A DNA stretch of 64,000 bases from Escherichia phage KarlGJung, in sequence record MZ501089; one strand, written 5' to 3'. Positions within the stretch are counted from its first letter, which is position 1, and each line of letters begins with the position of its first letter. Position numbers and translations under genes: made by a program. The notes beneath the pieces were generated by a model. That model did not search any database. It had not been told where the DNA came from and saw only the letters and a program-made list of their open reading frames with translations. Positions 2,587 to 62,561 of this stretch are shown here, one piece after another.

Positions 2587-2605
2587 AATATTTTCCTCAG
2601 TAAGG

Positions 2606-2622
2606 GGCCGAAGCCCCTCATT
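2606..2622 (-). other. intercistronic UUCG-tetraloop hairpin just 5' of a ribosome-binding site
   Basis: Minus-sense GAGGGGC-UUCG-GCCCCUU, then GAGG Shine-Dalgarno and ATG at 2586. Confidence 0.5.
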
Positions 2623-2994: not shown

Positions 2995-3061
2995 TTTATT
3001 CTCCAAGATGTTTAATTGCGGTACAGGTATATAATATCATATCCTGTACCAAAGTAAACAA

Positions 3062-3470: not shown

Positions 3471-3499
3471 AAAATAAAAAAGGACTCCCGAAGGAGTCC
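3471..3499 (-). terminator. Rho-independent terminator (UUCG hairpin plus U-run)
   Basis: Minus-sense GGACUCC-UUCG-GGAGUCC followed by UUUUUUAUUUU. Confidence 0.65.
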
Positions 3500-3504
3500 T
3501 CAAC

Positions 3505-6435: not shown

Positions 6436-6461
6436 TTTGTTTTCCTCATTTGTTTGGTAGA

Positions 6462-6495
6462 GCCATAATATCACAACTCTACCGTAAAGTAAACT
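6462..6495 (-). promoter_or_regulatory. early promoter
   Basis: Minus-sense (A)GTTTAC, 18 nt, TATTAT. Confidence 0.5.
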
Positions 6496-11400: not shown

Positions 11401-11408
11401 AATAAAAT

Positions 11409-11422
11409 GGGCCTTGCGGCCC
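11409..11422 (-). other. GNRA-tetraloop hairpin between the Shine-Dalgarno and start codon of denA
   Basis: Minus-sense UAAGGAG-U-GGGCC-GCAA-GGCCC-AUUUUAUU-AUG. Confidence 0.5.
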
Positions 11423-11427
11423 ACTCC

Positions 11428-17394: not shown

Positions 17395-17943
17395 ACCCAA
17401 GAAAACATCTACTGATCGTTGATACCACTGAAGGTCAAGGTATCCATTACGCACATTAAACTGATAGAACATATGACAAGGCGGTAATGCCATATATTTA
17501 AGTTCAGCTGGATTCCATGCTGAAACAATTTGACGCCTATCATTTGGCAGTTTTTTAATACGATCAATAGTTTCAACTAATTGATCCACACCGCCGAAAT
17601 CACGCCATTGTTTACCGTATATAGGACCAAGTTCACCACTATGATATCCTAGGTCTTTAGCCTGGTTTTCATAGTTATCGTCCCAAATAGTTTTACCTTG
17701 AATAAGACTACCATGTGTGCGAAGACGTAAATCATTAACATTGGTAGAACCGGAAATAAACCATAGAAGCTCAGCAATGCATGCATTCCACGCAAGCTTC
17801 TTAGTTGTTACCGCAGGAAAACCTTTAGTTAAATCCCAACGTAATTTAGTACCGAACAAAGCAATTGTTCCTGTGCCTGTTCGGTCATCGGTTTCATAGC
17901 CATTTTCAAAAATGTCTTTAATTAAATCTTGGTATTGTTTCAT
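17395..17943 (-). CDS. td: thymidylate synthase, exon 1
   Basis: 183 codons, MKQYQDLIKDIFENGYETDDRTGTGT... through catalytic ...LPPCHMFYQF... to ...VDVFLG, followed by intron-borne TAA. Confidence 0.92.
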
Positions 17944-19791: not shown

Positions 19792-19897
19792 TTTATTCTC
19801 CTTAGCAAGCTTTAATCAAAAGATATAAACAAACCAACATAACTGCTGCCATAATATAAGGTGCTAACATTTTCTTTTCTCCATTAGTTTTGATAGG

Positions 19898-19931
19898 GTA
19901 ATAGTATCACAACTAAAACCCTATGTAAACT
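19898..19931 (-). promoter_or_regulatory. early promoter
   Basis: Minus-sense (A)GTTTAC, 18 nt, TACTAT; -35 overlaps the stop of the upstream ORF. Confidence 0.5.
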
Positions 19932-20316: not shown

Positions 20317-20361
20317 TTTGATTTTCCTCATTTTAATAGGGGCTTAATAGCCCCTTGATAA

Positions 20362-20680: not shown

Positions 20681-20711
20681 TAAAATAAAAAAGGGGACCT
20701 CTAGGGTCCCC
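20681..20711 (-). terminator. Rho-independent terminator after gene 32
   Basis: Minus-sense GGGGACC-CUAGA-GGUCCCC followed by UUUUUUAUUUU. Confidence 0.7.
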
Positions 20712-27000: not shown

Positions 27001-27877
27001 TTCTCAGCGTAATAAAGCTGGAAATATAACATTTAATATCAACGGTACAGTAACACCGATAAATGTTAATGCTTCAGGAACATTGAATGCGAATGGCGTT
27101 GCTACATTTGGTAATTCAGTCACTGCAACTGGTGAAATTATTTCTCGAAGCGCAAATGCTTTCCGTGCTATTAATGGAAATTATGGTTTCATTATTCGTA
27201 ATGACGGGTCAGTAACGAATTTTATGCTTACTGCATCGGGTGATCAAACTGGCGGATTTAATGGATTGCGTCCTTTAGCTATTAATAATGCATCTGGCCA
27301 AGTAACGATTGGTGAAAGCTTAATCATTGCAAAAGGTGCTACTATAAGTTCGGGTGGTTTGACTGTTAACTCGAGAATTCGTTCTCAGGGTACTAAAACC
27401 TCTGATTTATATACCCGTGCGCCAACATCTGATACAGTAGGATTCTGGTCAATCGATATTAATGATTCAGCCACTTATAACCAGTTCCCGGGTTATTTTA
27501 AAATGGTTGAAAAAACTAATGAAGTGACTGGACTTCCATACTTAGAACGTGGTGAAGAAGTTAAATCTCCTGGTACATTGACTCAGTTTGGTAACACACT
27601 TGATTCACTTTACCAAGATTGGATTACTTATCCAACGACCCCAGAAGCACGTACCACTCGCTGGACACGTACATGGCAGAAAACCAAAAACTCTTGGTCA
27701 AGTTTTGTTCAGGTATTTGACGGAGGTAACCCTCCTCAACCTTCAGATATAGGAGCGATCCCATCTGATAATGGAATAATAGGTAATCTTACTATTCGCG
27801 ATTTCTTGCGAATTGGTAATGTTCGCATTATTCCTGACCCGGTGAATAAAACTGTTAAATTTGAGTGGATTGAATAA
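24008..27877 (+). CDS. 34: gp34 long tail fiber proximal subunit
   Basis: 1289 aa; internal repeats of the type TPxxLxxRxATETRRG(I/V)AxIATxxE (six or more copies); late promoter upstream. Confidence 0.95.
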   Translation: MAEIKRKFRAEDGLDAGGDKIINVALADRTVGTDGVNVDYLIQENTVQQYDPTRGYLKDFVIIYNNRFWAATDNIPKPAGNFNRIRWKALRTDAVYTTVSSGPYQLKSGEAISVDTSVGNDIEFTLPPSPLDGETVIIQDIGGKPGINQVKINSSNQSIVNFRGEQVRSVLMTHPKSQMVFIFNNRLWQMYIADYSREAAIVTPSTAYQAQSNDFIVRRFTSAAPINVKLPRFANHGDIINFVDLDKLNPLYHTIVTTYDETTSVQEVGTHSIEGRTSIDGFLMFDDNEKLWRLFDGDSKARLRIITTNSNIRPNEEVMVFGANNGTTQTIELQLPTDISVGDTVKISMNYMRKGQTVKIKAAGEDKIASSVQLLQFPKRSEYPPEAEWVTVQELVFNGETNYVPVLQLAYIEDSDGKYWVVQQNVPTVERVDSLNNSTRARLGVIALATQAQANADLENSPQKELAITPETLANRTATETRRGIARIATTAQVNQNTTFSFADDLIITPKKLNERTATETRRGVAEIATQQETNTGTDDTTIITPKKLQARQGSETLSGIVTFVSTAGATPASSRELNGTNVYNKNTNNLVVSPKALDQYKATPTQQGAVILAVESEVIAGQSQEGWANAVVTPETLHKKTSTDGRIGLIEIATQSEVNTGTDYTRAVTPKTLNDRRATESLSGIAEIATQVEFDAGVDDTRISTPLKIKTRFNSTDRTSVVALSGLVESGTLWDHYTLNILEANETQRGTLRVATQVEAAAGTLDNVLITPKKLLGTKSTESQEGVIKVATQSETVTGTSANTAVSPKNLKWIVQSEPTWAATTLIRGFVKTSSGSLTFVGNDTVGSTQPLESYEKNGYAVSPYELNRVLANYLPLKAKAVDSNLLDGLDSLQFIRRDIAQTVNGSLTLTQQTNLSAPLVSSSTATFGGSVSANSTLTISNTGTATRLIFEKGPQTGTNPAQTMTVRVWGNQFSGESDTTRSTVFEVSDETSSHFYSQRNKAGNITFNINGTVTPINVNASGTLNANGVATFGNSVTATGEIISRSANAFRAINGNYGFIIRNDGSVTNFMLTASGDQTGGFNGLRPLAINNASGQVTIGESLIIAKGATISSGGLTVNSRIRSQGTKTSDLYTRAPTSDTVGFWSIDINDSATYNQFPGYFKMVEKTNEVTGLPYLERGEEVKSPGTLTQFGNTLDSLYQDWITYPTTPEARTTRWTRTWQKTKNSWSSFVQVFDGGNPPQPSDIGAIPSDNGIIGNLTIRDFLRIGNVRIIPDPVNKTVKFEWIE

Positions 27878-27885
27878 GAGGTATT

Positions 27886-29001
27886 ATGGAAAAATTTATG
27901 GCAGAGTTTGGACAAGGATATGTCCAAACGCCATTTTTATCGGAAAGCAATTCAGTAAGATATAAAATAAGCATAGCGGGTTCTTGCCCGCTTTCTACTG
28001 CGGGGCCATATGTTAAATTTCAGGATAATCCCGTTGGAAATCAAACATTTAGTGCAGGTCTTCATTTAAGAGTTTTTGACCCTTCTACGGGAGCATTAGT
28101 TGATAGCAAGTCATATGCTTTTTCTGCTTCAAACAATACAACATCTGCCGCTTTTGTCAGTTTCATGAATTCTTTGTCAAACAATAGACTTGTTGCTATA
28201 TTAACTAGCGGAAAGGTTAATTTTCCTCCTGAAGTGGTATCTTGGTTAAGGGGAGCAGGAACTTCAGTTTTTCCATCAGATTCAGTATTGTCAAGATTTG
28301 ACGTGTCATATGCTGCTTTTTATACTTCTTCTAAAAGAGCTATTGCATTAGAGCATGTTAAACTAAGTAATAGAAAAAGCACAGATGATTATCAAACTAT
28401 TTTAGATGTTGTATTTGATAGTTTAGAAGACGTCGGAGCTACAGGATTTCCTAAAAGAACATACGAAAGCGTTGAGCAATTTATGTCTGCGGTTGGAGGA
28501 ACTAATAATGAAATTGCGCGATTGCCAACTTCAGCTGCTATAAGTAAACTTTCTGACTACAATTTAATTCCTGGTGATGTTCTTTATCTTAAAGCACAAC
28601 TATATGCTGATGCTGATTTACTTGATCTTGGAACTACAAATATATCTATTCGTTTTTATGATGCATCAAATGGATATATTTCCTCGACCCAAGCTGAGTT
28701 TACTGGGCAAGCTGGGTCTTGGGAATTAAAAGAAGATTATGTAGTTGTTCCTGAAAATGCAGTAGGATTTACGATATATGCACAAAGAACTGCCCAAGCA
28801 GGTCAAGGCGGCATGAGAAATTTAAGTTTTTCTGAAGTATCAAGAAATGGCGGCATTTCAAAACCTGCCGAATTTGGCGTCAACGGTATTCGCGTTAATT
28901 ATGTCTGTGAATCGGCTTCACCTCCAGATATAATGGTACTTCCTACACAAGCCTCTTCTAAAACTGGCAAAGTGTTTGGGCAAGAATTTAGAGAAGTTTA
29001 A
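27886..29001 (+). CDS. 35: gp35 long tail fiber hinge connector
   Basis: 371-aa ORF immediately after gene 34; T4 gp35-like size and position. Confidence 0.85.
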   Translation: MEKFMAEFGQGYVQTPFLSESNSVRYKISIAGSCPLSTAGPYVKFQDNPVGNQTFSAGLHLRVFDPSTGALVDSKSYAFSASNNTTSAAFVSFMNSLSNNRLVAILTSGKVNFPPEVVSWLRGAGTSVFPSDSVLSRFDVSYAAFYTSSKRAIALEHVKLSNRKSTDDYQTILDVVFDSLEDVGATGFPKRTYESVEQFMSAVGGTNNEIARLPTSAAISKLSDYNLIPGDVLYLKAQLYADADLLDLGTTNISIRFYDASNGYISSTQAEFTGQAGSWELKEDYVVVPENAVGFTIYAQRTAQAGQGGMRNLSFSEVSRNGGISKPAEFGVNGIRVNYVCESASPPDIMVLPTQASSKTGKVFGQEFREV

Positions 29002-29004
29002 ACT

Positions 29005-29030
29005 GAGGGAGCCTTCGGGTTCCCTTTTTC
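29005..29030 (+). terminator. Rho-independent terminator after gene 35
   Basis: Plus-sense GGGAGCC-UUCG-GGUUCCC followed by UUUUUC. Confidence 0.55.
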
Positions 29031-29032
29031 TT

Positions 29033-29040
29033 TATAAATA
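29033..29040 (+). promoter_or_regulatory. late promoter (TATAAATA) for gene 36
   Basis: Exact TATAAATA 24 nt upstream of the gene 36 ATG, just after the gene 35 terminator hairpin. Confidence 0.65.
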
Positions 29041-29063
29041 ATATTAAAATAAAGGGGCATATA

Positions 29064-29714
29064 ATGGCTGATTTAAAAGTAGGTTCAACTGTAGGTGGAT
29101 CTGTCATTTGGCATCAAGGAAATTTTCCATTGAATTCAGCCGGTGACGATGTACTCTACAAATCATTTAAAATATATTCAGAATATAATAAACCACAGGC
29201 AGCTGATAACGATTTCGTTTCTAAAGCTAATGGTGGTACTTACACCGGTCCAATTACTATTAATTACGGGGTAAATAGTTATCTTCAATTAAGTAATAAT
29301 GAAACCCCCATTCGAATTCGTTCTGGTGGCGGTACCGGTAATACTCTTGTAGTTGGCGGCTCTTCCGGCGGTATTAGTTTTAGACCTGCAGGTAGTGAAA
29401 TCACTACTGGACAAATTACGATTACGCCAGAAGGTTTGACAACATTTACCAAAGCTGTAACGGCTCCATCTGTAACTGTTACATCTACTCCTTCCGCAGC
29501 ATCTGATGTTACTCGTAAAGATTATGTTGATGGAGCAATAAATACTGTTACAGCAAATGCAAACTCTAGGGTATTACGCTCTGGAGACACTATGACAGGA
29601 AATTTAACTGCGCCAAACCTTTTTTCACAGAATCCTGCATCTCAACCTTCACACGTTCCACGATTTGACCAAATCGTAATGAAGGATTCTGTTCAAGATT
29701 TCGGCTATTATTAA
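29064..29714 (+). CDS. 36: gp36 long tail fiber distal connector
   Basis: 216 aa, [24 protein letters not shown]...; late promoter TATAAATA upstream. Confidence 0.85.
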
Positions 29715-29722
29715 GAGGACTT

Positions 29723-32692
29723 ATGGCTACTTTAAAACAAATACAATTTAAAAGAAGCAAAACCGCAGGTCAACGTCCTGCTGCTTCAGTATTAGCCGAA
29801 GGTGAATTGGCTATAAACTTAAAAGATAAAACAATTTTCACAAAAGATGACTCAGGTAGTGTTATAGAATTAGGTTTAAAATATGGAGGAACTATAAATG
29901 GGTCTTTAGAGGTTACAGAAAATATAACTGGAACTTTAATTGGAAATTCTAGCACAGCTACTAAATTGCAAACACCTAGGAAAATTAATGGTATATCTTT
30001 TGATGGGTCAAAAGATATCACGCTAACTCCATCTGACATAAATGTCAATAGCACAACATTTATAAAAAATAATGGCGAATTACCTACTGATGCTAATTTA
30101 GATACGTATGGGCCCATTGAAGAATATCTTGGTGTTTGGTCGAAATCTACTTCAACAAATGCGCAACCAGCAAATAAATTCCCAGAAGAAAATGCCGTAG
30201 GTGTACTAGAAGTATTTGTGGCCGGCCAATTTGCTGGCACTCAGCGTTATACTGTAAGATCTGGTAACGTCTATATTCGTTCCTTATCTGCTAAATGGAA
30301 TGGCGTCGATGGTCCATGGGGTGTGTGGCGTAATGTTCAAGCGTCAACTCGTCCACTTTCACAAACGATTGACCTTGATAGCTTGGGAGAATTAGAACAT
30401 TGTGGCTTATGGAGAAACAGTTCAAGCGCAATCGCATCATTTGATCGCCATTATCCAGAAGAAGGATCAGCCGCACAAGGATTTTTAGAAATATTTGAAG
30501 GTGGTTTATACGCAAGAACGCAGCGTTATACTACCCGCATGGGTATGGTTTATACTCGTTGTCTCGCTGCTGCATGGGATGCTAGTGCACCTAAGTGGGA
30601 GGAATGGAAGCAGGTTGGTCATGGCACACCAGCGACTTTCTATGATGGAGATCTGAATGATTTTAAAACTCCTGGGTTATATAACATTTTAGGCACTGAT
30701 GCCGTTATTAACTGTCCTACTGGTGAAGGTTTACCAGCCGTTATTGTTGGTTTGCTGGAAGTTAAACAGCGTGCTTCTGGTGGTGCTATTTTCCAAAAAT
30801 TTACTACTGCCGGAACGGGTGCAACTACTCGCGATCGTATTTTTGAGCGTGCATATACTGGTGGTGCGTGGGGCGCATGGAACGAAGTATATACATCTTA
30901 TTCTCTTCCAATTACTTTGGGTATGGGTGGTATTAAAGCTCAATTAGCGGAGTTAGATTGGCAAACCTTTGATTTTGTTCCTGGTAGTATGTTTAGCGTT
31001 CCTTTGAACAAAATAAAGAACATGCCAGCAAATATGGATTGGGGGACGATTGACGGAAACTTGGTTATGTTTTCCGTTGGTCCTAGCGAACACACTGGCA
31101 CAGGGCGTACTGTTCAAGTGTGGCGCGGTACTGTATCTCAGGCGAACTATCGTTATTTCGTTGTTCGTATCGCTGGTAATCCAGGAAGTAGGACTAATAC
31201 TTGTCGTCGTGTTGTTGTGGAAGATGGTCGCCACACATGGACAGCACAGCAAGATTTTAATGGTGCTGTCAACTTTGGTGGTTCGACAACTTTTAAGTCC
31301 ACTACAACTTTTAACACAGAAGTTAAATTCCGTTCATCCAATGCATTTAAAATGTATGGCGGTAATTTTGGCACAATTTTCCGTAATGATGGTGAAAGTC
31401 TTTATATTCTTTCCACCGACGAAAATGATCAAGATGGAAACTTTAATACAAATAGACCTTTCCGCTATCAATTAAAAACTGGCGATGTTACTTTGGGTGG
31501 CACTAGCGGTGCTAACGCTTTAGTATTAAAAGGCGGTTCTCTTGCTGCTACCTTTAGCGGTGATGTTAATTTAAGTAAAGGTACGCTGACGTTTGAAGCG
31601 GGTGGTAAGCAATCACGCGATTATTTCCGGTTTAATCATTGGGGTGATAGCAATAACGCTCGTGATAACATTATTCAGTTAGAAGATAGTAAAGGCGCTC
31701 ATTTTTCCACTGAACGTACTTTAGCGACGGGTGCAATTAAAACTAAGTTCTTTGGTGAAGTTGAATCCGATGGTCGATTGACTATTAAACGTCCTGGTGA
31801 TTCTATTGTATTATCAACAACTGCTGGTAATGCTTTGCATATTCGTGGTGACATAGACGGGACTGGTAACTGGTATATTGGTAAGGGTGGTGCTGATAAT
31901 TCGCTAGCATTTTATAGCTATGCTTCTCAGGCGGCAGTACATATCACAAACAATGGTGAGATTGCGTTAAACCCGCAAAATACCGCAATGGTTAACGTTA
32001 ACCGTGACCGTGTACGCATTAACGGTTCTGGATGGATTGCTAGACAACCGGGTGATTGGGGCAACCAATGGCGAGTAGAAGCTCCATTATTCGTTGATCA
32101 TGGTTATGTTTCACAGGATTGTTATTATCCTATTCTTAAAGCAAGAAGCGTTATAACCAATCAAGGATATAGCACCGCTGTTGACTTTGGTATGCGTCGT
32201 ATTCCATCACAGTGGGGGCAAGCAATCATTCGTGTCGGATCCACGGAGGCTTCTCCTGATGCTGGACACCCACAAGCTGTGTTTGAATTCCATCATGATG
32301 GATTCTTTTATACACCAGGAAATGGTAGCTTTAGCGATGTGTATATTCGTTCTGACTCCCGTCTCAAGATTAATAAAGAAGAATTAGAATATGGAGCGGT
32401 CGAAAAAGTTTGCCGACTGAAAGTTTATATTTACGATAAAGTTAAGTCTATTAAAGACCGTAGTGTTATTAAACGTGAAGTTGGTATTATTGCTCAGGAC
32501 CTTGAAAAGGAATTACCGGAAGCTGTATCTAAAGTTGAAGTTGATGGATCTGATGTTCTGACAATTTCTAACTCTGCTGTGAATGCTCTTTTAATTAAGG
32601 CTATTCAGGAAATGAGTGAAGAAATTAAAGAATTGAAAACGCCTCTCTTTACTAAAATTGCTCGCAAAATTAGTAAATATTTTAAATTCTAA
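29723..32692 (+). CDS. 37: gp37 long tail fiber distal subunit with C-terminal chaperone-like domain
   Basis: 989 aa; N-terminal region similar to gp36/gp34 N-termini; C-terminal roughly 115 aa begins at an SDSRLK motif followed by predicted helical segments. Confidence 0.9.
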
Positions 32693-32728
32693 CAACAAGG
32701 GGGAAATGCCCCCTTTGGAGTATAAATT

Positions 32729-33511
32729 ATGGCAGTAGTTGGTGTTCCTGGTTGGATTGGAAGTTCAGCCGCAAATGAAACAGGACAGCGCTGGATGAGT
32801 CAAGCGGCTGGTCAATTAAGATTGGGTGTTCCTTGCTGGATGAGTCAATTTGCAGGTCGCTCACGAGAAATTATTCACACGCTTGGAGCAGACCATAACT
32901 TCAATGGTCAATGGTTCCGAGATAGATGTTTTGAGGCAGGTAGTGCACCTATAGTGTTTAATATTACGGGTGATTTAGTATCATATTCTAAAGATGTTCC
33001 TTTATTCTTCATGTACGGAGATACACCAAATGAATATGTTCAGTTAAATATACATGGCGTAACGATGTATGGACGTGGCGGTAATGGTGGTAGCAATAGT
33101 CCTGGCTCAGCTGGAGGTCATTGTATTCAAAACGATATTGGTGGGAGACTAAGAATTAATAATGGTGGAGCTATTGCTGGCGGCGGTGGCGGCGGTGGCG
33201 GCGGATATTATTCTCCTTTTTCACAAATGAGATTAACCTTTGGCGGTGGTGGTGGGCGTCCGTTTGGTGCACCTGGCGGATCTATTGATATGCAATCAGG
33301 CGCAACTGCTGGTACTATTTCTGCACCTGGCTCAGGATCCGTGAATGGTATCTATAATGGTGGAAACGGTGGTGAAGTAGGTTCCGCGGGAGGTAGATGC
33401 AATATTCGCGGTCAAGGATCTGAATATAATGGCGGCGCTGCTGGTTATGCTGTCATAGGGTCTGCTCCAACGTGGCAAAATGTTGGAGCAATATATGGTC
33501 CAAGAGTATAA
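32729..33511 (+). CDS. 38: gp38 receptor-binding adhesin, glycine-rich (T2/T6-type)
   Basis: 260 aa with several glycine-rich motifs ([50 protein letters not shown]) separated by short variable segments; directly follows gene 37. Confidence 0.85.
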
Positions 33512-33541
33512 TGTGAATAAATACCCTTAAAAGGAGGGTCT

Positions 33542-34198
33542 ATGGCAGCACCTAGAATATCATTTTCGCCCTCTGATATTCTGTTTGGTGTTCTAGATCG
33601 CTTGTTCAAAGATAACGCTACCGGGAAAGTTCTTGCTTCCCGGGTAGCTGTCGTAATTCTTTTATTTATGATGGCGATTGTTTGGTATAGGGGAGATAGT
33701 TTCTTTGAGTACTATAAGCAATCAAAGTATGAAACATACAGTGAAATTATTGAAAAGGAAAGAAATGCACGCTTTGAATCTGTCGCCCTGGAACAACTCC
33801 AGATAGTTCACATATCATCTGAGGCAGACTTTAGTGCGGTGTATTCTTTCCGCCCTAAAAACTTAAACTATTTTGTTGATATTATAGCATACGAAGGAAG
33901 ATTACCTTCAACAATAACTGAAAAATCACTTGGAGGATATCCTGTTGATAAAACTATGGATGAATATACAGTTCATTTAAATGGACGTCATTATTATTCC
34001 AACTCAAAATTTGCTTTTTTACCAACTAAAAAGCCTACTCCCGAAATAAACTACATGTACAGTTGTCCATATTTTAATTTGGATAATATCTATGCTGGAA
34101 CGATAACCATGTACTGGTATAGAAATGATCATATAAGTAATGACCGCCTTGAATCAATATGTGCTCAGGCGGCCAGAATATTAGGAAGGGCTAAATAA
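33542..34198 (+). CDS. t: holin T
   Basis: 218 aa; one N-proximal TM helix (VAVVILLFMMAIVWY) and a large C-terminal domain; matches T4 T holin size and position after gene 38. Confidence 0.9.
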   Translation: MAAPRISFSPSDILFGVLDRLFKDNATGKVLASRVAVVILLFMMAIVWYRGDSFFEYYKQSKYETYSEIIEKERNARFESVALEQLQIVHISSEADFSAVYSFRPKNLNYFVDIIAYEGRLPSTITEKSLGGYPVDKTMDEYTVHLNGRHYYSNSKFAFLPTKKPTPEINYMYSCPYFNLDNIYAGTITMYWYRNDHISNDRLESICAQAARILGRAK

Positions 34199-34471
34199 TT
34201 ATTTGTTCGTATACATCTCTAGATATCGATATACACCCTCAAAACCCTCGTTGAATTCGTCGATGAGGGTTTTCTTATCTTCTTGAGTTAATTCAGAAAC
34301 AATTTTACGGAATGAATTCTGATTTAATTTTCTACCTTCATGCGTTACTCCAATCTCATTCAGAAATGCAATAAAATTAGCACGATTCTCAACAATATCT
34401 TCTCTGGAAAATTTAATCAAAATAGACGCAACAGTAATAATTTCACGAACTGTATCAATGTTTTTATTCAT
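34199..34471 (-). CDS. asiA: AsiA anti-sigma-70 factor
   Basis: 90-aa ORF MNKNIDTVREIITVASILIKFSREDIVENRANFIAF...; T4 AsiA-like; convergent with t. Confidence 0.9.
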   Translation of the reverse strand: MNKNIDTVREIITVASILIKFSREDIVENRANFIAFLNEIGVTHEGRKLNQNSFRKIVSELTQEDKKTLIDEFNEGFEGVYRYLEMYTNK

Positions 34472-37360: not shown

Positions 37361-37389
37361 AATAAAAAAGGGAGAGCCGAGGCTCTCCC
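37361..37389 (-). terminator. Rho-independent terminator after gene 52
   Basis: Minus-sense GGGAGAGCC-UCGG-CUCUCCC followed by UUUUUUAUUU. Confidence 0.65.
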
Positions 37390-37394
37390 TAAAA

Positions 37395-39172: not shown

Positions 39173-39253
39173 TCACTGGCGTCCGAAGACGCCTTTAGTT
39201 TTAAGATTATTACGATAGAACTGCATCACGTGTTCGTTGTGGAAATTACTCAT
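39173..39253 (-). CDS. stp: Stp peptide (26 aa)
   Basis: Hand-translated [26 protein letters not shown], matching the T4 Stp peptide as I recall it; start overlaps the ndd stop (TAATG). Confidence 0.75.
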
Positions 39254-41003: not shown

Positions 41004-41561
41004 TTAAATGGAAAGATACCATCCGCTGTAGTTGCTTTTTCTTACAACTTTACGAAGGTCTTCTCTGTCACCGATGAACTTCGGAGTGTACTGGATGACA
41101 CCTGGATGAATTTCTTTAGTGTTGAATATAATTATACAGTCGGCGACTTGATGATTTAGAATGGGCCCTAGATTTATTCCAGAACCATATTGATACTCTC
41201 CGCTGCATCCCGTTGTTACCGAAATCCAACGCGAGTCAGTTTGATGTGTCTTAACTTCTACGCGAAGCCCACAGTATTTTGGATGTGCTAAAACATCCCA
41301 TGCATATGTGTACGGATCATCGACATCTTCTTGGCCTTTATTGACATATCCGCTTAGCCAATCTGCCACGAAAAACTCGGCGTACACAGCGATACGGCAT
41401 CTTTCGATAACTTCTGCCTTATCCTGATTTGGGTTTTGTTTTAAAGAGTATCTTGCAGTATCAGCAATTTTGACCTTCATTTCACTAGTCAAGTCACTGT
41501 TCGATAGGGTAAATGACGGAATCTGAAATAGTCTCTGCAAACCCGGATTCGTTTTCTGCAT
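41004..41561 (-). CDS. denB: endonuclease IV
   Basis: 185-aa ORF MQKTNPGLQRLFQIPSF...; matches T4 DenB size and position between ndd and rIIB. Confidence 0.85.
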   Translation of the reverse strand: MQKTNPGLQRLFQIPSFTLSNSDLTSEMKVKIADTARYSLKQNPNQDKAEVIERCRIAVYAEFFVADWLSGYVNKGQEDVDDPYTYAWDVLAHPKYCGLRVEVKTHQTDSRWISVTTGCSGEYQYGSGINLGPILNHQVADCIIIFNTKEIHPGVIQYTPKFIGDREDLRKVVRKSNYSGWYLSI

Positions 41562-41647
41562 TTAAACTTTCCTTTTATGTCTGAATCACTGGTATTCATA
41601 TAATAAATCATAATTTCTCTTAAAACAAAAGGGCCGAAGCCCTTATT

Positions 41648-41842
41648 TTATTTGAATTGTGCAATTCTTTTCTCTAGACATTCAGCATAAGATTTCATTG
41701 AGATGAACTGTGAAAGTAGCAGTTCTTGCTCAACTGCACTAACTGTTAGAAACTTTGCGCTTTCTAAAAATTTACTCAGTGCATTAATTTTGAGCATTAA
41801 TTGATCGTATTCTTCTTTTACTCGTGCTTGATAACCTAACAT
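41648..41842 (-). CDS. hypothetical protein (64 aa)
   Basis: ORF track; ATG start; flanked by UUCG hairpins. Confidence 0.45.
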   Translation of the reverse strand: MLGYQARVKEEYDQLMLKINALSKFLESAKFLTVSAVEQELLLSQFISMKSYAECLEKRIAQFK

Positions 41843-41861
41843 AATTTTCCTTAGTTAAGGG

Positions 41862-41873
41862 CCGAAGCCCTTA
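41862..41873 (-). other. intercistronic UUCG hairpin immediately after the rIIB stop
   Basis: Minus-sense GGGC-UUCG-GCCC followed by UUAACUAAGGAAAAUUAUG; a similar hairpin lies at 41631..41642 upstream of denB. Confidence 0.5.
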
Positions 41874-42809
41874 TTTAAATTGTTCAGTAACGTCTTCAAC
41901 TACTTCGTATTGGCAGGTACGCATTTTAGCATCGTTGTAATCAATCGGAATTGATACTACATCACGCGGATGTACTTTAACTTTTACGACTAGGCTGGTT
42001 GAACTGCCAAAGTGACGAATATAAGATTTAGAACACACATGCAGACCACGAGAACAAGTTTGTGTATCATCGTCATTCACACGAGTACGTGGCATTTTAA
42101 CTACTTTACCCGGACTGTTATCAAAGGTGTTTGAGTGACAGTCAAAGTAATTGCTGCGAACTACTTTCCAAGCATAGAAGTAACCATCTTCTGTAATTTC
42201 AATATCGTTTGCTACCAAGAAATCAAAGAGTCGAGATACCGCTTTTTGGCTTGGGTTTTCCAGCAGATTTTCCAAGAACGGAAAATAAAATTCAAAGTTT
42301 TCGCCTTTTTCCATCGAGTCAAGAATACGATCAACCAAACCAGACCGCAATTCGATATTTTGATAGAACAAGCTTCCACCTTCAATTCGAACATCGCCGG
42401 AAATATATTTTTCAACAGCACGGCGAACATTAATTTTTTGTGCAGCTTCTTCCAGCTTATCCGCTACAAGCAGATTAAGAATTTCCTGGAAGTTTGAATG
42501 AGTATTAGGAGTTGCGTTATAAGTTACACCGTCAACAGTAATTGAAATGAATTTTTTAGATGCATTCCAAATAATGTCAGATTTAGCAACTGGAGCAATA
42601 ACTGCATCGCTATTAACTTTAACTGTAATATCACCGCTAATAGTAACTTTAGGGCGTTTAGCTTCTTCAGCATTTTTCAAAACACGACGGATTGTGTCAA
42701 CCGATACATCCTTCCAATAAGCTAATTCCTGTTGGGTATAATTACCACTTGAATACAGTTTAACAATTTCAGCTTGTTCGTTTTTGGTCAGGCATTTAAT
42801 ATTGTACAT
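41871..42809 (-). CDS. rIIB: rIIB protein
   Basis: 312-aa ORF immediately downstream of rIIA; matches T4 rIIB size. Confidence 0.9.
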   Translation of the reverse strand: MYNIKCLTKNEQAEIVKLYSSGNYTQQELAYWKDVSVDTIRRVLKNAEEAKRPKVTISGDITVKVNSDAVIAPVAKSDIIWNASKKFISITVDGVTYNATPNTHSNFQEILNLLVADKLEEAAQKINVRRAVEKYISGDVRIEGGSLFYQNIELRSGLVDRILDSMEKGENFEFYFPFLENLLENPSQKAVSRLFDFLVANDIEITEDGYFYAWKVVRSNYFDCHSNTFDNSPGKVVKMPRTRVNDDDTQTCSRGLHVCSKSYIRHFGSSTSLVVKVKVHPRDVVSIPIDYNDAKMRTCQYEVVEDVTEQFK

Positions 42810-42820
42810 AATTTTCCTTA

Positions 42821-44998
42821 TTAGGCCGCAAGGGCCTTCATAGTTTTAGCGATTTGGGAAACTTCATCATCACTTAAAGAGTTGCGATAACCGATGAAGT
42901 CGGAAACAATACGGAATTTCTTGGTAAACTCAGCAACCATTTTATCACTATTTTTTGAAGCATTACGTGATAATTCATCAAAAAGATTAGTTACCGTCCA
43001 GATGTCATGACCGATGGTATCTTTTCCACCATTAAAATATACACCGCGCAATGAACTAACTATATTAGCGAGTCGTGTATATTCTTCAGAAACTTCATCT
43101 GTACTGAAGTACTTCATCATAAAATCTAGTTCAGGATGCTTGATAATTTTATCAATATATCGTTGAGCTGAACTTGAATAACCTACATACTTATCATAAT
43201 CTACATCATCAAAAGCATCTACATATAAATCACGCAAAGCTTCAAAAATACATTGGCACTGACCGAGCTCTTTTACCTTTTTCTGCAAAAGCGGACGAAT
43301 AACATAAAATTCATTAATGCCAATAAGATTAGCCATACGAATCAAAATATTCATAGATGGATGACAAAGCGATGTAGTACCATCCATAGAGAAAATATCA
43401 GAACGATGCATATACGCTACATAACCAGTAATTTCATCTGCTTCTGACGTAAGTGTAAATAGTTCCTCTTTTTCCCAGCGCCCGTCTTTAATTTCAAACT
43501 TAAATGCTGTAGCAGCTTTAGGACGAGGAGCTTTACTTTTAACTACCTTTGGAATATAACTTTTTACTAAAGCTTCAATTTCTGACAAATAGTGAATGTT
43601 AACTTCATCACTTTCAAACATCGCCATAATATCAGGGAGTAAATCAATCTGCGATTCTACTTCCGGATTAATAAACAGAAGACGCTCATTGTGATGAATA
43701 TTTAAAGTGTTATTAAATTCACTATCATCTAACGCATGTGCTAATCCACGGACAATATTAACACGATTTTTAATATTATCAATAACGATATTAATTTTTG
43801 TTGTATTAATACCAAACAGACGATAACTTGATGCAACGGCTGAAGTTTCATGACTTTGCTTAATACGCTTCAGTCGAGGGTCAAGATTTACTTCATACAC
43901 AACCCCTGCATTGCATAGCTTACTGTCAGGTTCAAACATGCTCTGCATTTTCTTATATGACAGATTTTTAGTCGTGAATTTGACTGAATTACTAATCATA
44001 TAATCTCGAGCAGAATACCCCATCTTCATCAATTCACGATATGTATGACGAGGAGATGTAGATTCTTTAAATCGTTTTACATCTTCATTAAATGCTTTCT
44101 CACTAAGCTCTTTAACTCGTTCAATAATATTTTTACGAGTACGATCATCCAATGAAAGAGCTTCACGTGATGGAGCAATATCAAGTGAACCCATTGGAAA
44201 CTTAATGTAATTTACTTCATTGCGAATGCTTAGCCAGTTACGGTCTCTAATAACACCATCGATAGGATAAACAATACCGCCATAGATAGCATATAATCCA
44301 CCACGATCTGGCCAGTATCTTTCTGGATTTACACCGTAATAGTCATCAAAATCCGGAAAATAATCAATTTCGCGGTCAAGACCATTAATGATAGCCAAAT
44401 CTTTGAACGGTCGCATGATATAAGAAACTTCATAAGCAAAGTTTCTAAAGTCTTTTTCTTCAACTGGAACTACGATTTCAATACCAGTTTTATCATCTGG
44501 ACCCATTTCTTTCACGAATGTAGGTTTAATTTGTGGACCATCGCCATCCATGTAAGCTACATAACCACGAATTTCACCTTTATGATACGAAGTAATACTA
44601 AATGTATCAGTATAACTAAACGGAGATTTAGAACCTAAACCAAATCCGCCAATGAAATCGTTAGATTCAGCCTTAGATGAACTGAAGTATGAATTATACA
44701 AACCAGGAGAATTATCATCACCCTGAATATCAAAATCACTCATACCCGGACCAAAATCTCGACAAACAAATCGCGGATCTAATCGTCCTGGAACTTGTAT
44801 GATAAATTTTTCAGGATTTCCATTAAGTGCATGGGCATCAATCATATTAGTAATTAATTCACGGACTACTGCACGAATCTTGTTTGTATACAAATCAGAT
44901 GACAGAATTTTAAATACTTTAGGAGATGCTGTGATGCTAAATGCTTTTGATTTAGAACCATTGCCAAGAATTGTTTCTTTTTCAGTGGTGATAATCAT
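42821..44998 (-). CDS. rIIA: rIIA protein
   Basis: 725-aa ORF ([20 protein letters not shown]...); matches T4 rIIA size and order. Confidence 0.93.
42824..42837 (-). other. intercistronic hairpin between rIIA and rIIB
   Basis: Minus-sense GGCCC-UUG-CGGCC-like stem-loop directly after the rIIA stop and before the rIIB Shine-Dalgarno. Confidence 0.4.
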
Positions 44999-45234: not shown

Positions 45235-45268
45235 TTAATTATACCACATCCTTGTGGTAAAGTAAACT
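45235..45268 (-). promoter_or_regulatory. early promoter upstream of the rIIA operon
   Basis: Minus-sense (A)GTTTAC, 18 nt, TATAAT. Confidence 0.55.
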
Positions 45269-47084
45269 ACTGGCTCATCCATTCTTTACGAAGGTCAGCA
45301 TTATCTCCCATGAGCATTTCAAAAAGCTCTTTCCAGTTCTCAGGAAGTTTAACAACATCATATACTGGATTTTGAATCATCTCACGATATTCAGATTTTT
45401 CCAAAGAGCCAAGTCCTTTAATATAACGGATGCTATGTTTAGGTAGAGCATCTTTAGCACTCTCATATTCAGCGACTGTATAAAACCATTCTTGTTTTTT
45501 ACCGACCTGAGCGATGATTACAGGAGTTTTGACAAAACGAATTCTTCCTTGCTCAAACAGTTCTGGCCAATTACTAAAAAACCCGAGCAGAGAAGGATAA
45601 ATGCTTCCTAGACCATCATGGTCAGCATCAGTCATAATAGCAATATTATGATAATTCAAGTTTTCAGCTTTTTCACCGAGAACTAATCCAGTGATTGCGC
45701 AAATATCAAATAGTTCTTTGTTTTTAAGCATATCTGCATAAGACATACCCCAACTGTTGAGAACTTTACCGCGCAATGGATAACCACCGTGAAGTTCTTT
45801 ATCACGAACATCAATAAGATATCCGATAGCCGAATCACCCTCAGTCAAGAAAAGAGTAGTGTCAGCATCTTTACCACAAAGATTCGCTTTGATATGTTTA
45901 TGAACCTTAGCTTTAGAAGCCTTTTTAGCTGCTTTAGTTTCTGCTGCTTTTTCTGCCGCCAATTTACGAGCCAAAGCAGCTTCAATAATCGGCATTAGAA
46001 TTGCTTCATTATTTAGAATAGCGCGTGAAATCTTTTTAGCATCAAGTTGAATATGACTACGAATTTCGCCAAATGGAGAAGTCAAACGCTCTTTAGTTTG
46101 AGAATCAAATCGCATGTTTTTCATATCACGAACAAACATAACGATAGTCAAACATTCTTTAACACGCGCTTTAGTTACATCAATTTTGAACTTACGTTTG
46201 ATTTGTGGAATAAGGTCTTCACAAATATCATCCATAACACAGTCAATGTGATGGCCACCATTCTTAGTGTGAATGTTATTGACGTATGTTAATTGACGAA
46301 AACCATCCGGTGAACGACCAACCGCAATAGAACAATTTTCTTGTTCTTGAACAATAGCATGCTCATCATATTGGCGTGCATATTTCTTAAAATTGCCCTG
46401 AACCTTTTTACCATTAAAGGTAAATTGAATATCAGGATAAACTACTGCAAGTGTCTGGAGACGATCTAGTGTAATGTCAAGATAAACTTGGGACAGCTCA
46501 TTAGTTTCAAATGACATAAAATCAGGAATGAAAGTAACACGAGTTCCTTTCCATTTTCCAGGAATAGTTTCCCATGATTTATTTTCCATGCCATTTGAAC
46601 AACGAACTACAATATTATTTTGACCATCACCAGTTTCACCGACAAACATCACAGAAAAAATGTTTGTCAAACTAGAACCAACACCATTCATACCGCCAGT
46701 GACGCGTTCTTTATCATCACCGAAGTTACCACCTGCTTTTGGAATAGTCCATGCAGCAACAGGACCAGGAATTTCTTCACCGGTAGGTGTTTTAACCATC
46801 GCCTGCGGAATACCACGACCGTTATCTTCAACTGTTACTTGATTGTTTTTAATAGTAACATTAATTTTATTTGCGAATTTAAACTTAGTACGAATACCTT
46901 CATCTACTGAGTTATCGATAATTTCATCAATAAGCTTAACAAGACCAGGTACATACTGAACACTTTCCCATTTACCAAACAGAAAGCGCTCATGCATTTC
47001 ATTAGCAGAAGAGCCAATATACATGCCGCTACGCTTTTTGATATGTTCAATATCGCTCAGAATTTTAATTTCATTCTTAATCAT
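45267..47084 (-). CDS. 39: gp39 DNA topoisomerase II large subunit (GyrB-like), unsplit
   Basis: 605/606-aa continuous ORF with GHKL ATPase region and TOPRIM-like region; C-terminal part corresponds to what is the separate gene 60 product in T4. Confidence 0.92.
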   Translation of the reverse strand: MIKNEIKILSDIEHIKKRSGMYIGSSANEMHERFLFGKWESVQYVPGLVKLIDEIIDNSVDEGIRTKFKFANKINVTIKNNQVTVEDNGRGIPQAMVKTPTGEEIPGPVAAWTIPKAGGNFGDDKERVTGGMNGVGSSLTNIFSVMFVGETGDGQNNIVVRCSNGMENKSWETIPGKWKGTRVTFIPDFMSFETNELSQVYLDITLDRLQTLAVVYPDIQFTFNGKKVQGNFKKYARQYDEHAIVQEQENCSIAVGRSPDGFRQLTYVNNIHTKNGGHHIDCVMDDICEDLIPQIKRKFKIDVTKARVKECLTIVMFVRDMKNMRFDSQTKERLTSPFGEIRSHIQLDAKKISRAILNNEAILMPIIEAALARKLAAEKAAETKAAKKASKAKVHKHIKANLCGKDADTTLFLTEGDSAIGYLIDVRDKELHGGYPLRGKVLNSWGMSYADMLKNKELFDICAITGLVLGEKAENLNYHNIAIMTDADHDGLGSIYPSLLGFFSNWPELFEQGRIRFVKTPVIIAQVGKKQEWFYTVAEYESAKDALPKHSIRYIKGLGSLEKSEYREMIQNPVYDVVKLPENWKELFEMLMGDNADLRKEWMSQ

Positions 47085-47107: not shown

Positions 47108-47140
47108 GAATATTATACTCCAGTAATCATAAAGCTAAAG
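47108..47140 (-). promoter_or_regulatory. possible MotA-dependent middle promoter for gene 39
   Basis: Minus-sense TTAGCTTTA (MotA-box-like), 12 nt, TATAAT, about 25 nt upstream of the gene 39 ATG. Imperfect box. Confidence 0.35.
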
Positions 47141-47154
47141 GCCCGAAGGCCTTT

Positions 47155-49480: not shown

Positions 49481-49553
49481 AATTATCTCTCACTTGTTAA
49501 AAAGATTTTATACTCCGCAGGACCATTATACTCTGGTCCCAAGAGTTTGTAAA

Positions 49554-50568: not shown

Positions 50569-50592
50569 TTTATTATCCTCAGTAGCTATGGT

Positions 50593-50626
50593 GTTATAAT
50601 ACCACAACTAACCGAGGAAGTAAACA
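50593..50626 (-). promoter_or_regulatory. early promoter
   Basis: Minus-sense GTTTAC, 18 nt, TATTAT. Confidence 0.5.
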
Positions 50627-57947: not shown

Positions 57948-57973
57948 TGAAAAAAGGACTCCCGAAGGAGTCC
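57948..57973 (-). terminator. Rho-independent terminator after soc
   Basis: Minus-sense GGACUCC-UUCG-GGAGUCC followed by UUUUUUCAUUU. Confidence 0.65.
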
Positions 57974-57981
57974 TTGAATTA

Positions 57982-62501: not shown

Positions 62502-62529
62502 AACAATCTCCTCATTTAACCAACAAGAC

Positions 62530-62561
62530 TACTATACCATAGTCTTGTCAGCTTGTAAACT
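62530..62561 (-). promoter_or_regulatory. early promoter upstream of the dmd-like gene
   Basis: Minus-sense GTTTAC, 18 nt, TATAGT; -35 overlaps the gene 41 stop. Confidence 0.45.

What the first reader, a model, noticed from the sequence alone, without database searches (positions are those of the whole stretch)
41631..42837. Stable tetraloop hairpins placed between stop codons and the next ribosome-binding site
Several intergenic spacers of only 20-40 nt contain a perfect short GC stem with a UUCG or GNRA loop and no following U-run (2606..2622, 41631..41642, 41862..41873, 42824..42837; also 20338..20355 and 47131..47144). Without a U-tract they are unlikely to be terminators. More likely they are RNA stability or processing barriers, or they modulate translation initiation of the next gene.
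Basis: inference. Interest (0 to 1): 0.4.

Follow-up and report, generated by a model that had tools for sequence, protein, structure and literature searches.

The report
T4-type UUCG hairpins between phage genes
These are the very stable C(UUCG)G RNA hairpins long known from the gene junctions of phage T4: some are ordinary terminators, and those without a U-run most likely protect or separate segments of multi-gene mRNAs, so the finding is real but not new.

Summary
The window is a T4-like coliphage (Tequatrovirus); 41631-42837 spans the rIIA / rIIB / denB.1 / denB junctions, all on the - strand. The hairpins are real and non-random: 18 GC-stem tetraloop sites against 2.4 in shuffles, and 7 UUCG loops against 0.01. 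Read on the sense strand, the description needs correcting:
- 41629-41644 is followed by UUUUGUUUU and is an annotated terminator.
- 42823-42837 lies inside the last rIIA codons and has a 5-nt CUUGC loop.
- 20338-20355 has an AUUA loop.
- None of the six has a GNRA loop.
- Two coordinate pairs are off by 3-10 nt.

Two classes emerge. Class A is hairpin plus U-run, usually followed by a promoter. Class B has no U-run and sits 0-8 nt before the next Shine-Dalgarno, capping the upstream ORF.

Class B is under RNA-level selection. UUCG is on the sense strand in 23 of 24 cases across three genera. Stems covary across ten lineages. Rare codons build the stems inside rIIA and stp. JS98 and RB69 keep class B at the same junctions.

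The phenomenon was described for T4 in 1988 (Tuerk et al.). The likeliest role of class B is as a nuclease barrier or decay-domain boundary; leaky attenuation is the main rival. Already known; low interest.

The parts
41856..41873 (-). Class B hairpin UAAGGGC-UUCG-GCCCUUA at the rIIB 3' end. The rIIB stop UAA is the first 3 nt of the stem. It is followed by ACU-AAGGAAAAUUAUG (Shine-Dalgarno and start of denB.1). No U-run (1 U in the next 8).
   Evidence: -10.9 kcal/mol; orthologous hairpins with other stems in ten further lineages, 11 of 14 sampled
42823..42837 (-). Class B hairpin AGGCC-CUUGC-GGCCU built from the last rIIA codons (AAG GCC CUU GCG GCC) plus the U of the stop codon. It is followed by AA-UAAGGAAAAUUAUG (rIIB).
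   Evidence: rare-codon test 0 of 5000 synonymous resamples as stable; identical in T4; hairpins at the same junction in Mosigvirus, Kanagawavirus, Tulanevirus and Biquartavirus
41620..41644 (-). Class A intrinsic terminator after denB.1: AAGGGC-UUCG-GCCCUU (41629-41644) plus the U-run UUGUUUUAA (41620-41628).
   Evidence: annotated as a terminator in Aplg8 and G9062
2601..2620 (-). Class B hairpin UGAGGGGC-UUCG-GCCCCUUA between 30.7 and 30.6, followed by CU-GAGGAAAAUAUUAUG.
   Evidence: -14.1 kcal/mol; retained without a U-run and with different stems in JS98 and RB69
20338..20355 (-). Class B hairpin AGGGGCU-AUUA-AGCCCCU between frd.3-like and frd.2-like ORFs. Shine-Dalgarno GAGGAAAA lies 8 nt downstream.
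   Evidence: not seen at the corresponding RB69 junction
39178..39193 (-). Class B hairpin GGCGUC-UUCG-GACGCC inside the 26-codon stp gene (encodes ...GVFGRQ). The stop UGA overlaps the Shine-Dalgarno of ac (AGUGAGGAAAAUAUG).
   Evidence: codon test 3 of 5000; retained in JS98 with a G-U change
32697..32715 (+). Class B hairpin in the late-gene block, between genes 37 and 38: AAGGGGG-AAAUG-CCCCCUU, then U-GGAG-UAUAAAUUAUG.
   Evidence: JS98 and RB69 keep a hairpin abutting GGAGG
47137..47154 (-). Hairpin AAAGGCC-UUCG-GGCCUUU directly after the 39.1-like stop, followed by a MotA-box-like middle promoter (AGCUUUA, 12 nt, UAUAAU) for gene 39. Intermediate U content (4 of 8).
3480..3501 (-). Class A terminator (UUCG loop, UUUUUAUUUU) followed by an early-type promoter: a PeSL-type cassette.
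   Evidence: annotated as a terminator in Aplg8
20693..20711 (-). Class A terminator after gene 32 (GGGGACC-CUAGA-GGUCCCC then UUUUUUAUUUU), followed by an early-type promoter.
   Evidence: orthologues with UUCG loops in JS98 and RB69
29005..29026 (+). Class A terminator between genes 35 and 36. The UUCG loop is on the + strand, which is the sense strand of this late block. Followed by the late promoter TATAAATA.
37369..37390 (-). Class A terminator (CUCG loop) after motA.1, followed by an early-type promoter.
   Evidence: annotated as a terminator in Aplg8
57954..57975 (-). Class A terminator (UUCG loop) followed by an early-type promoter. Identical over 25 nt to the one at 3480.

Best explanation
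The features are the extra-stable C(UUCG)G-type RNA hairpins characteristic of T4 and its relatives. They act in the sense transcript.

In this window they fall into two classes. Class A is hairpin plus U-run: intrinsic terminators, usually followed by an early, middle or late promoter. 41629-41644 belongs here.

Class B has no U-run. The base of the stem lies 0-8 nt before the next gene's Shine-Dalgarno. The upstream stop codon lies before, inside or at most about 5 nt after the stem. Members are 2601, 20338, 39178, 41856, 42823 and 32697(+).

My best reading of class B (inferred, not shown) is that it marks off segments of the polycistronic mRNA as nuclease barriers. After an endonucleolytic cut downstream (RNase E/G, RegB), the 3'-to-5' exonucleases PNPase and RNase II would stall at the hairpin, so the complete upstream ORF with its stop codon survives. 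A cut in the A/U-rich stretch just 5' of the hairpin would leave the downstream cistron with a 5' stem-loop that slows 5'-end-dependent RNase E attack. Adjacent cistrons could then accumulate and decay independently.
For: Shown here:
- Identity. The window is Tequatrovirus and T4 carries the same hairpins.
- Non-randomness.
- Sense-strand RNA selection. UUCG reads on the sense strand in 8 of 8 window hairpins, including the one in the + strand late block. Across window + JS98 + RB69 the count is 23 UUCG to 1 CGAA, binomial p = 3e-6. The Gold laboratory reports the same for T4 (PMC7165471).
- Structure is maintained while sequence drifts. At the rIIB 3' end, 5 of 6 stem pairs change on both sides across ten lineages, 98% of cells are paired, and 0 of 500 shuffles match.
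- Stems inside coding sequence are built from rare codons: 0 of 5000 (rIIA) and 3 of 5000 (stp) synonymous resamples are as stable.
- U content after the stem is bimodal, 6-7 against 1-3 of 8.
- Class B stays class B at 30.7/30.6, 37/38 and stp/ac in other genera.
- In all window class B cases the hairpin caps a complete ORF.

From the literature:
- T4 early mRNA is degraded by RegB, RNase E/G and 3' exonucleases, which enter at new 3' ends (PMC3014915).
- E. coli operons use conserved 3' protective hairpins (malE-malF type) and RNase E-generated 5' protective hairpins. The latter often lie inside the upstream gene's coding region and carry wobble-position constraint (PMC5927463).
- In T4 the transcript class changes from early (rIIB) to middle (denB.1, denB) across the 41856-type hairpin. 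No promoter motif explains this.
Against: - No transcript ends, half-lives or cleavage sites were examined; the mechanism is inference.
- The temporal-class change is seen at only one of five hairpin junctions checked. It fits attenuation equally well.
- The KPV15 rIIA-end hairpin lies about 30 nt before the stop codon. There a 3' cap would leave a non-stop mRNA.
- Some lineages manage without a hairpin at the rIIB 3' end (FL37, Vibrio F91, L009-L011).
- The rIIA-end hairpin is weak (-8 kcal/mol, z = -0.8).
- The covariation alignment was assembled by structure, so the percentage paired is partly built in.
Confidence: 0.5

Rival explanations
1. Class B hairpins are leaky or conditional transcription terminators, attenuators or pause sites. 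They may be relics of intrinsic terminators whose U-run was displaced by the adjacent Shine-Dalgarno. On this view they lower or delay read-through into the next gene.
For: - The orthologous rIIB 3' hairpin is followed by a U-run in Mosigvirus, Jiaodavirus, Gelderlandvirus and Karamvirus, so classes A and B interconvert at one site.
- The G9062 record annotates the 41856 equivalent as a putative terminator.
- In T4, rIIB RNA is classed early while denB.1 and denB are classed middle. No promoter motif lies between them.
- A PeSL stem-loop reduced lacZ read-through in RB49 (PMC2839356).
Against: - Only 1-3 U in the 8 nt after the stem. From established knowledge, intrinsic termination by E. coli RNA polymerase needs the U-tract.
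- Class B is kept without a U-run at 30.7/30.6 and 37/38 in three genera. This argues for a stable class rather than decay of terminators.
- Genes on both sides are 'early' at 30.7/30.6, stp/ac and 39.1/39.
Confidence: 0.25
2. Class B hairpins tune translation initiation of the downstream gene. They might insulate the Shine-Dalgarno from upstream structure, stack on the SD-antiSD helix, or stop a terminating 30S subunit from sliding back and so favour re-initiation.
For: - The gap between stem base and Shine-Dalgarno is tight: 0-4 nt in 5 of 6 window sites and in the JS98 and RB69 orthologues.
- The hairpin intrudes into the upstream coding sequence rather than moving away from the Shine-Dalgarno.
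- T4 is known to use hairpins in initiation regions: genes 25 and 38 (enhancing) and e, soc and 49 (inhibitory) (PMC3014915).
Against: - Predicted unpaired probability of the SD-AUG region is not raised by the hairpin. Wild type is equal to or lower than the arm mutants at 4 of 6 sites.
- Alternative 3'-arm:SD pairings are weak, -1.6 to -4.4 kcal/mol.
- Tight spacing is also what genome compaction alone would give.
- The known T4 initiation-region hairpins either contain the SD/AUG or lie between them. These do neither.
Confidence: 0.15
3. The hairpins are mainly DNA-level linkers for recombination that shuffles small gene cassettes (PeSL-like). RNA effects would be secondary.
For: - denB.1 is flanked by identical ATAAGGGCTTCGGCCCTT copies. 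Identical 25-nt terminators lie at 3480 and 57954.
- The gene after the rIIB hairpin differs between genera: denB.1 against an ORF272-type gene.
- PeSL-mediated shuffling is documented, including for the T4/PST ndd.4/.5 region (PMC2839356, PMC4122927).
Against: - The strong sense-strand bias of the UUCG loop is not expected for a DNA-level signal.
- Class B sites have no room for the promoter that defines a PeSL.
- A synthetic denB.1-deletion junction found no single-piece match among the best-ranked records. All spanned the extra 227 nt.
Confidence: 0.05
4. They terminate antisense (+ strand) transcription running into the early genes.
For: On the + strand several class B hairpins are followed by T-rich tails, and the simple scanner flags them as terminator-like (39178, 41856, 42823, 47137).
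Against: - On that strand the loop is CGAA, not a stabilising tetraloop. Selection keeps UUCG on the sense strand 23:1.
- The T-rich tail is the complement of the A-rich stop-codon context.
Confidence: 0.03

Closest known systems
C(UUCG)G hairpins of T4 intercistronic regions (Tuerk et al. 1988, PNAS 85:1364; cited from the reference list of PMC7165471; the paper itself could not be read here)
   Same: Same phage group and same positions; T4 has these hairpins. Same C(UUCG)G loop on a short G+C stem, with the same restriction to the sense strand (PMC7165471).
   Different: The split into U-run and no-U-run classes, and the retention of the no-U-run class across genera, come from this analysis. 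I cannot say whether they were spelled out in 1988.
Intrinsic (Rho-independent) terminators
   Same: G+C-rich hairpin placed at a gene end. 41629, 3480, 20693, 29005, 37369 and 57954 fit fully.
   Different: 2601, 20338, 39178, 41856, 42823 and 32697 lack the U-tract and abut a Shine-Dalgarno instead.
PeSL promoter-early stem-loop cassettes of T4-like phages (Arbiol et al. 2010; Comeau et al. 2014)
   Same: Intergenic stem-loop, then regulatory signals, then Shine-Dalgarno and start codon. 3480, 20693, 37369 and 57954 match this (stem-loop + GTTTAC...TAnnAT). 47137 resembles the middle-promoter version (PmSL).
   Different: Class B has only 0-8 nt between stem and Shine-Dalgarno, so no promoter fits. 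No indel was found at the denB.1 pair.
Protective intercistronic RNA structures in E. coli operons (malE-malF 3' stem-loop; papBA 5' stem-loop; Dar and Sorek 2018, PMC5927463)
   Same: Stable structure at the boundary of two cistrons, conserved in relatives, sometimes embedded in the upstream coding region with synonymous-site constraint.
   Different: Those have measured differential decay and mapped RNase E sites; here there are none. The phage hairpins are much shorter (5-8 bp) and rely on special tetraloops.
Split Shine-Dalgarno/AUG hairpins of T4 genes 25 and 38
   Same: A short stable hairpin that is part of a translation initiation region.
   Different: In those the hairpin lies between SD and AUG. 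In class B it lies upstream of the SD. Only the nrdB/denA site (11404-11427) has the split arrangement.

Membership tests
T4-type C(UUCG)G hairpin | UUCG tetraloop closed by a C-G pair | tested here: met
Not met at 20338 (AUUA) or 42823 (CUUGC).
T4-type C(UUCG)G hairpin | Occurs in the sense (mRNA) strand with flanking self-complementarity; antisense occurrences are not in stems | tested here: met
   8 of 12 sense against 1 of 15 antisense CUUCGG in stems. 23:1 sense UUCG to CGAA across three genera.
T4-type C(UUCG)G hairpin | Unusually high thermal stability of the RNA | not testable with these tools
   Only predicted energies are available, -8 to -14.7 kcal/mol for 5-8 bp stems. No melting data.
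Intrinsic terminator | G+C-rich stem-loop | tested here: met
   All sites.
Intrinsic terminator | U-tract directly 3' of the stem on the transcribed strand | tested here: not met
   U in the next 8 nt: 2603 = 2, 20338 = 3, 41856 = 1, 42823 = 1, 39178 = 1, 32697 = 3. Met only at 41629 (6). 47137 is borderline (4).
Intrinsic terminator | Transcript 3' ends formed at the site | not testable with these tools
   No 3'-end data found. Only gene-level temporal classes for T4.
PeSL cassette | Stem-loop combined with an early sigma-70-like promoter (TTTACW N17 TAYWAT) before the Shine-Dalgarno | tested here: not met
   Class B has 0-8 nt between stem and SD. No promoter motif in 41560-42400. The feature is met at 3480, 20693, 37369 and 57954.
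PeSL cassette | Association with insertion, deletion or replacement of the flanked ORF | tested here: inconclusive
   No denB.1 deletion among the best-ranked Tequatrovirus records. The gene after the rIIB hairpin does differ between genera.
Protective intercistronic structure (differential operon decay) | Stable structure at the cistron boundary, conserved in related genomes | tested here: met
Protective intercistronic structure (differential operon decay) | Extra constraint on synonymous positions where the structure overlaps coding sequence | tested here: met
   Rare-codon and resampling test for the rIIA and stp tails.
Protective intercistronic structure (differential operon decay) | Different stability or abundance of the flanking cistrons, with processed ends at the structure | not testable with these tools
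   One indirect hint only: T4 rIIB is early while denB.1 and denB are middle.
Split SD-AUG initiation hairpin (genes 25/38 type) | Hairpin lies between Shine-Dalgarno and start codon and restores functional spacing | tested here: not met
   In all six reported sites the hairpin is 5' of the SD. Only 11404-11427 (nrdB/denA) has this layout.

The most novel reading that the evidence does not exclude
The hairpins without a U-run may form a distinct, conserved 'hairpin-then-Shine-Dalgarno' module of T4-like phages. Its position relative to the SD (0-4 nt) would be the selected feature. It might act on the ribosome, for example by stacking on the SD-antiSD helix or by blocking back-sliding of a terminating 30S subunit to promote re-initiation. 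Or it might be the actual boundary that sets early against delayed expression without a canonical terminator, as the rIIB to denB.1 class change hints.
Probability: 0.12. Interest if true: 0.5.

Novelty: already known. Interest (0 to 1): 0.2.

Why it matters
It matters little as a discovery. UUCG hairpins at T4 gene junctions were the original observation behind the 'extra-stable tetraloop' concept, and this window is about 97% identical to sequenced T4-like phages.

The useful residue is practical:
1. Annotation pipelines label hairpins without a U-run as terminators (G9062), or place terminators on the wrong strand (Aplg8).
2. The subset without a U-run is a conserved class whose function has apparently never been measured. 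It offers a cheap test case for how a compact phage genome uncouples the fate of neighbouring cistrons.

Tried and rejected
- **Rfam gathering scan of the window:** no family.
- **Papers not held:** Tuerk 1988 (PMC279771) and Miller 2003 (PMC150520). No T4 3'-end or cappable-seq study turned up in the searchable library.
- **IMG/VR search with RIIB:** only 8 loci, so the annotated phage collection was used instead.
- **5'-terminal cap on a primary transcript:** rejected for rIIB. The only MotA-type promoter match (42939-42962) would start about 95 nt upstream of the hairpin.
- **A hidden promoter to explain denB.1/denB being 'middle':** none found.
- **Insulator model:** SD accessibility is not improved by the hairpin.
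- **Ribosome-dependent switch (3' arm masks the SD):** alternative helices are too weak.
- **Recombination between the identical hairpins flanking denB.1:** no deletion variant among the best-ranked records.
- **RegB involvement:** class B Shine-Dalgarno sequences are GAGG or AAGG, not the GGAG that RegB cuts. The exceptions are 37/38 (a late gene) and the GGAG after 39744.
- **RNase E RN|WUU motifs upstream of the hairpins:** considered, but not scored. In a 65% A+T genome such matches are uninformative.
Full report
**What the region is.** A 4-kb query around the finding matches Tequatrovirus (T4-like) coliphages at about 97% identity. The genes lie on the - strand in T4 order:

| Gene | Window coordinates |
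|---|---|
| rIIA | 42821-44998 |
| rIIB | 41871-42809 |
| denB.1 | 41648-41842 |
| denB | 41004-41561 |

. The whole window is - strand early/middle genes, except for the late tail-fibre block 24008-34199 on the + strand. Every hairpin therefore has to be read on the reverse complement of the displayed sequence.

**Corrections to the description**.
- Two coordinate pairs are off: the true positions are 2603-2618 and 47137-47154.
- On the sense strand four of the six loops are UUCG. 20338 is AUUA and 42823 is a 5-nt CUUGC. None is GNRA.
- 41629-41644 is followed by UUGUUUUAAG, so together with the UU that closes its stem it has a U-run. The simple scanner and the Aplg8 and G9062 records call it a terminator.
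- 42823-42837 is not in a spacer. It is made of the last rIIA codons AAG GCC CUU GCG GCC plus the U of the stop codon.
- At 41856-41873 the rIIB stop codon is the first three bases of the stem.
- 47137-47154 is followed by a MotA-box-like middle promoter (AGCUUUA, 12 nt, UAUAAU) ahead of gene 39.

**Two classes.** Counting U in the 8 nt after the stem gives a bimodal picture.

| Class | U in next 8 nt | Sites | What follows |
|---|---|---|---|
| A | 6-7 | 3480, 11408, 20693, 29005(+), 37369, 41629, 57954 | Usually a promoter: early-type after 3480, 20693, 37369 and 57954; late TATAAATA after 29005 |
| B | 1-3 | 2601, 20338, 39178, 41856, 42823, 32697(+) | Purine-rich Shine-Dalgarno 1-8 nt away (1-4 nt at five of the six) |

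The class A sites followed by early promoters match the published PeSL cassettes (PMC2839356, PMC4122927). 39744, after ndd.1, also has only 3 U of 8, but the ndd Shine-Dalgarno lies about 20 nt away and I did not class it.

In class B the upstream stop codon lies before, inside or just after the stem.

**Evidence that class B is selected as RNA structure.**
1. **Strand.** Over the window plus 45 kb each of JS98 and RB69, sense-strand loops are UUCG 23 times and CGAA once (p = 3e-6; orthologous sites are not fully independent).
2. **Covariation.** At the rIIB 3' end, 11 of the 14 lineages sampled (the window's own plus ten others) carry a hairpin just after the stop codon. The stems differ: AAGGGC, GGAGGC, GGGGAC, GGGGC, GGAGCC, GCCCUC, AGGGAC, AGGGCC and others. 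The loop is UUCG (UUUG in some Tequatrovirus), or GNRA in two lineages. In the ten-sequence alignment, 5 of 6 pairs change on both sides, 98% of cells pair, and 0 of 500 shuffles match. The alignment was made by structure, so this is partly built in.
3. **Codon choice.** The rIIA and stp tails use rare G/C-ending codons. Synonymous resampling gives a stem as stable in 0 of 5000 and 3 of 5000 trials.
4. **Class persistence.** JS98 and RB69 keep hairpins with no U-run and an adjacent Shine-Dalgarno at 30.7/30.6 and 37/38, each with a different stem. JS98 also keeps the one inside stp.
5. **The rIIA/rIIB junction.** It holds a hairpin in five genera although the sequence is unrelated. The rIIA stop codon sits after the stem, or in the loop (Kosakonia phage 305, IME13, AhFM11).

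**How it most likely works.** T4 early mRNAs are polycistronic. They are degraded by RegB, RNase E/G and the host 3' exonucleases, which enter at newly made 3' ends (PMC3014915). The host uses conserved stem-loops between cistrons in two ways:
- as 3' barriers to PNPase and RNase II (malE-malF type);
- as 5' protective structures left by RNase E cleavage (papBA type). These often lie inside the upstream gene and carry wobble-site constraint (PMC5927463).

Class B has exactly this anatomy. I therefore read class B hairpins as nuclease barriers that split the transcript into separately decaying domains.

One indirect observation fits a boundary. In a T4 time course, rIIA and rIIB RNA are classed early, but denB.1 and denB are classed middle (PMC9697503 Table S2). 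I find no early, middle or late promoter motif between them. This fits leaky attenuation equally well. The other four junctions checked show no class change. The mechanism is inference; nothing here measures RNA ends or decay.

**Rivals.**
- **Attenuation.** This is the main rival, because the same rIIB 3' hairpin carries a U-run in Mosigvirus, Jiaodavirus, Gelderlandvirus and Karamvirus. Against it stand the missing U-tract and the stable no-U-run state at other junctions.
- **A role in translation initiation.** The 0-4 nt spacing to the Shine-Dalgarno suggests it. However, predicted SD-AUG accessibility is not improved by the hairpin, and alternative pairings are weak. Genome compaction would give the same spacing.
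- **A DNA-level recombination role.** The identical repeats flanking denB.1 suggest it. The strand bias contradicts it, as does the absence of a deletion variant among the best-ranked records.
- **Antisense termination.** The loop orientation contradicts it.

**Comparison with what is known, and novelty.** The frequent C(UUCG)G hairpins of T4 intercistronic regions were described by Tuerk et al. in 1988. That citation comes from PMC7165471; I could not read the paper itself.
- The Gold laboratory restated the sense-strand restriction in 2020.
- Durand et al. 2006 mention intergenic stem-loops that often carry UUCG.
- T4 itself has these very hairpins.

The finding is therefore already known. 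My split into U-run and no-U-run classes, and the retention of the latter across genera, may or may not be explicit in the older literature. The function of the class without a U-run appears not to have been measured.

**Verdict.** Novelty: already known. Interest: 0.2.

Noticed in passing
window 11404-11427 (- strand): Between nrdB and denA the Shine-Dalgarno GGAG follows the nrdB stop directly. A GCAA-loop hairpin then separates it from the denA AUG: 23 nt apart, about 7 nt if the hairpin is folded out. This is the 'split' initiation-region layout known for T4 genes 25 and 38, or else a terminator whose U-run runs into the AUG. RB69 keeps the layout with a different stem and a UUCG loop; JS98 lacks it.
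   Followed up: partly
window 3020-3050, 6456-6483, 19893-19924, 49514-49544, 50583-50610, 62520-62551 (- strand): Inverted repeats of 7-13 bp straddle the -10 element of early-type promoters (GTTTAC ... TAnnAT). The primary transcript would contain only the 3' arm, so the hairpin could form only in read-through RNA or in DNA. The PeSL paper mentions stem-loops overlapping the -10 box.
   Followed up: no
window 39173-39253 (- strand): The 26-codon stp gene ends with a UUCG hairpin built from rare codons (GGC GUC UUC GGA CGC C). The C-terminal residues GVFGR may therefore be shaped partly by RNA structure. JS98 keeps the hairpin although the peptide end changes (…GVFGRP).
   Followed up: partly
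window 41629-41644 and 41856-41873; 3480-3501 and 57954-57975: denB.1 is flanked by identical 18-nt copies of ATAAGGGCTTCGGCCCTT. Two terminators 54 kb apart share an identical 25-nt sequence, AGGACTCCTTCGGGAGTCCTTTTTT. No denB.1 deletion variant was seen among the best-ranked related phages.
   Followed up: partly
window about 16380-17400: The td gene is interrupted by an intron carrying the 245-aa I-TevI homing endonuclease ORF (16526-17263; ends ...DKWNWFYINA, recognised from memory). Even so, the Rfam gathering scan of the window reported no family at all, not even a group I intron.
   Followed up: no
T4 record, rIIB / denB.1 / denB (window 41004-42809): Published T4 time-course data class rIIA and rIIB RNA as early but denB.1 and denB as middle. 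The change falls at the hairpin without a U-run, not at the U-run terminator after denB.1. No promoter motif was found between them.
   Followed up: partly
window 45267-47084 and 32729-33511: Gene 39 is a single 605-codon ORF, so this phage lacks the T4 gene 39/60 split and the gene 60 translational bypass. gp38 is of the T2 adhesin type (MAVVGVPGW...).
   Followed up: no
L027 (RB69) 52-to-motA spacer; window 47939 (+ strand): Two exceptions to the sense-strand rule. An RB69 terminator has the loop CGAA on the sense strand. One antisense CUUCGG in the window has a 5-bp stem inside a coding region.
   Followed up: no
L001/L003 (Aplg8) and L024 (G9062): Public annotations are inconsistent. Aplg8 places some 'terminators' on the non-transcribed strand. 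G9062 labels the hairpin without a U-run at the rIIB 3' end as a terminator.
   Followed up: yes
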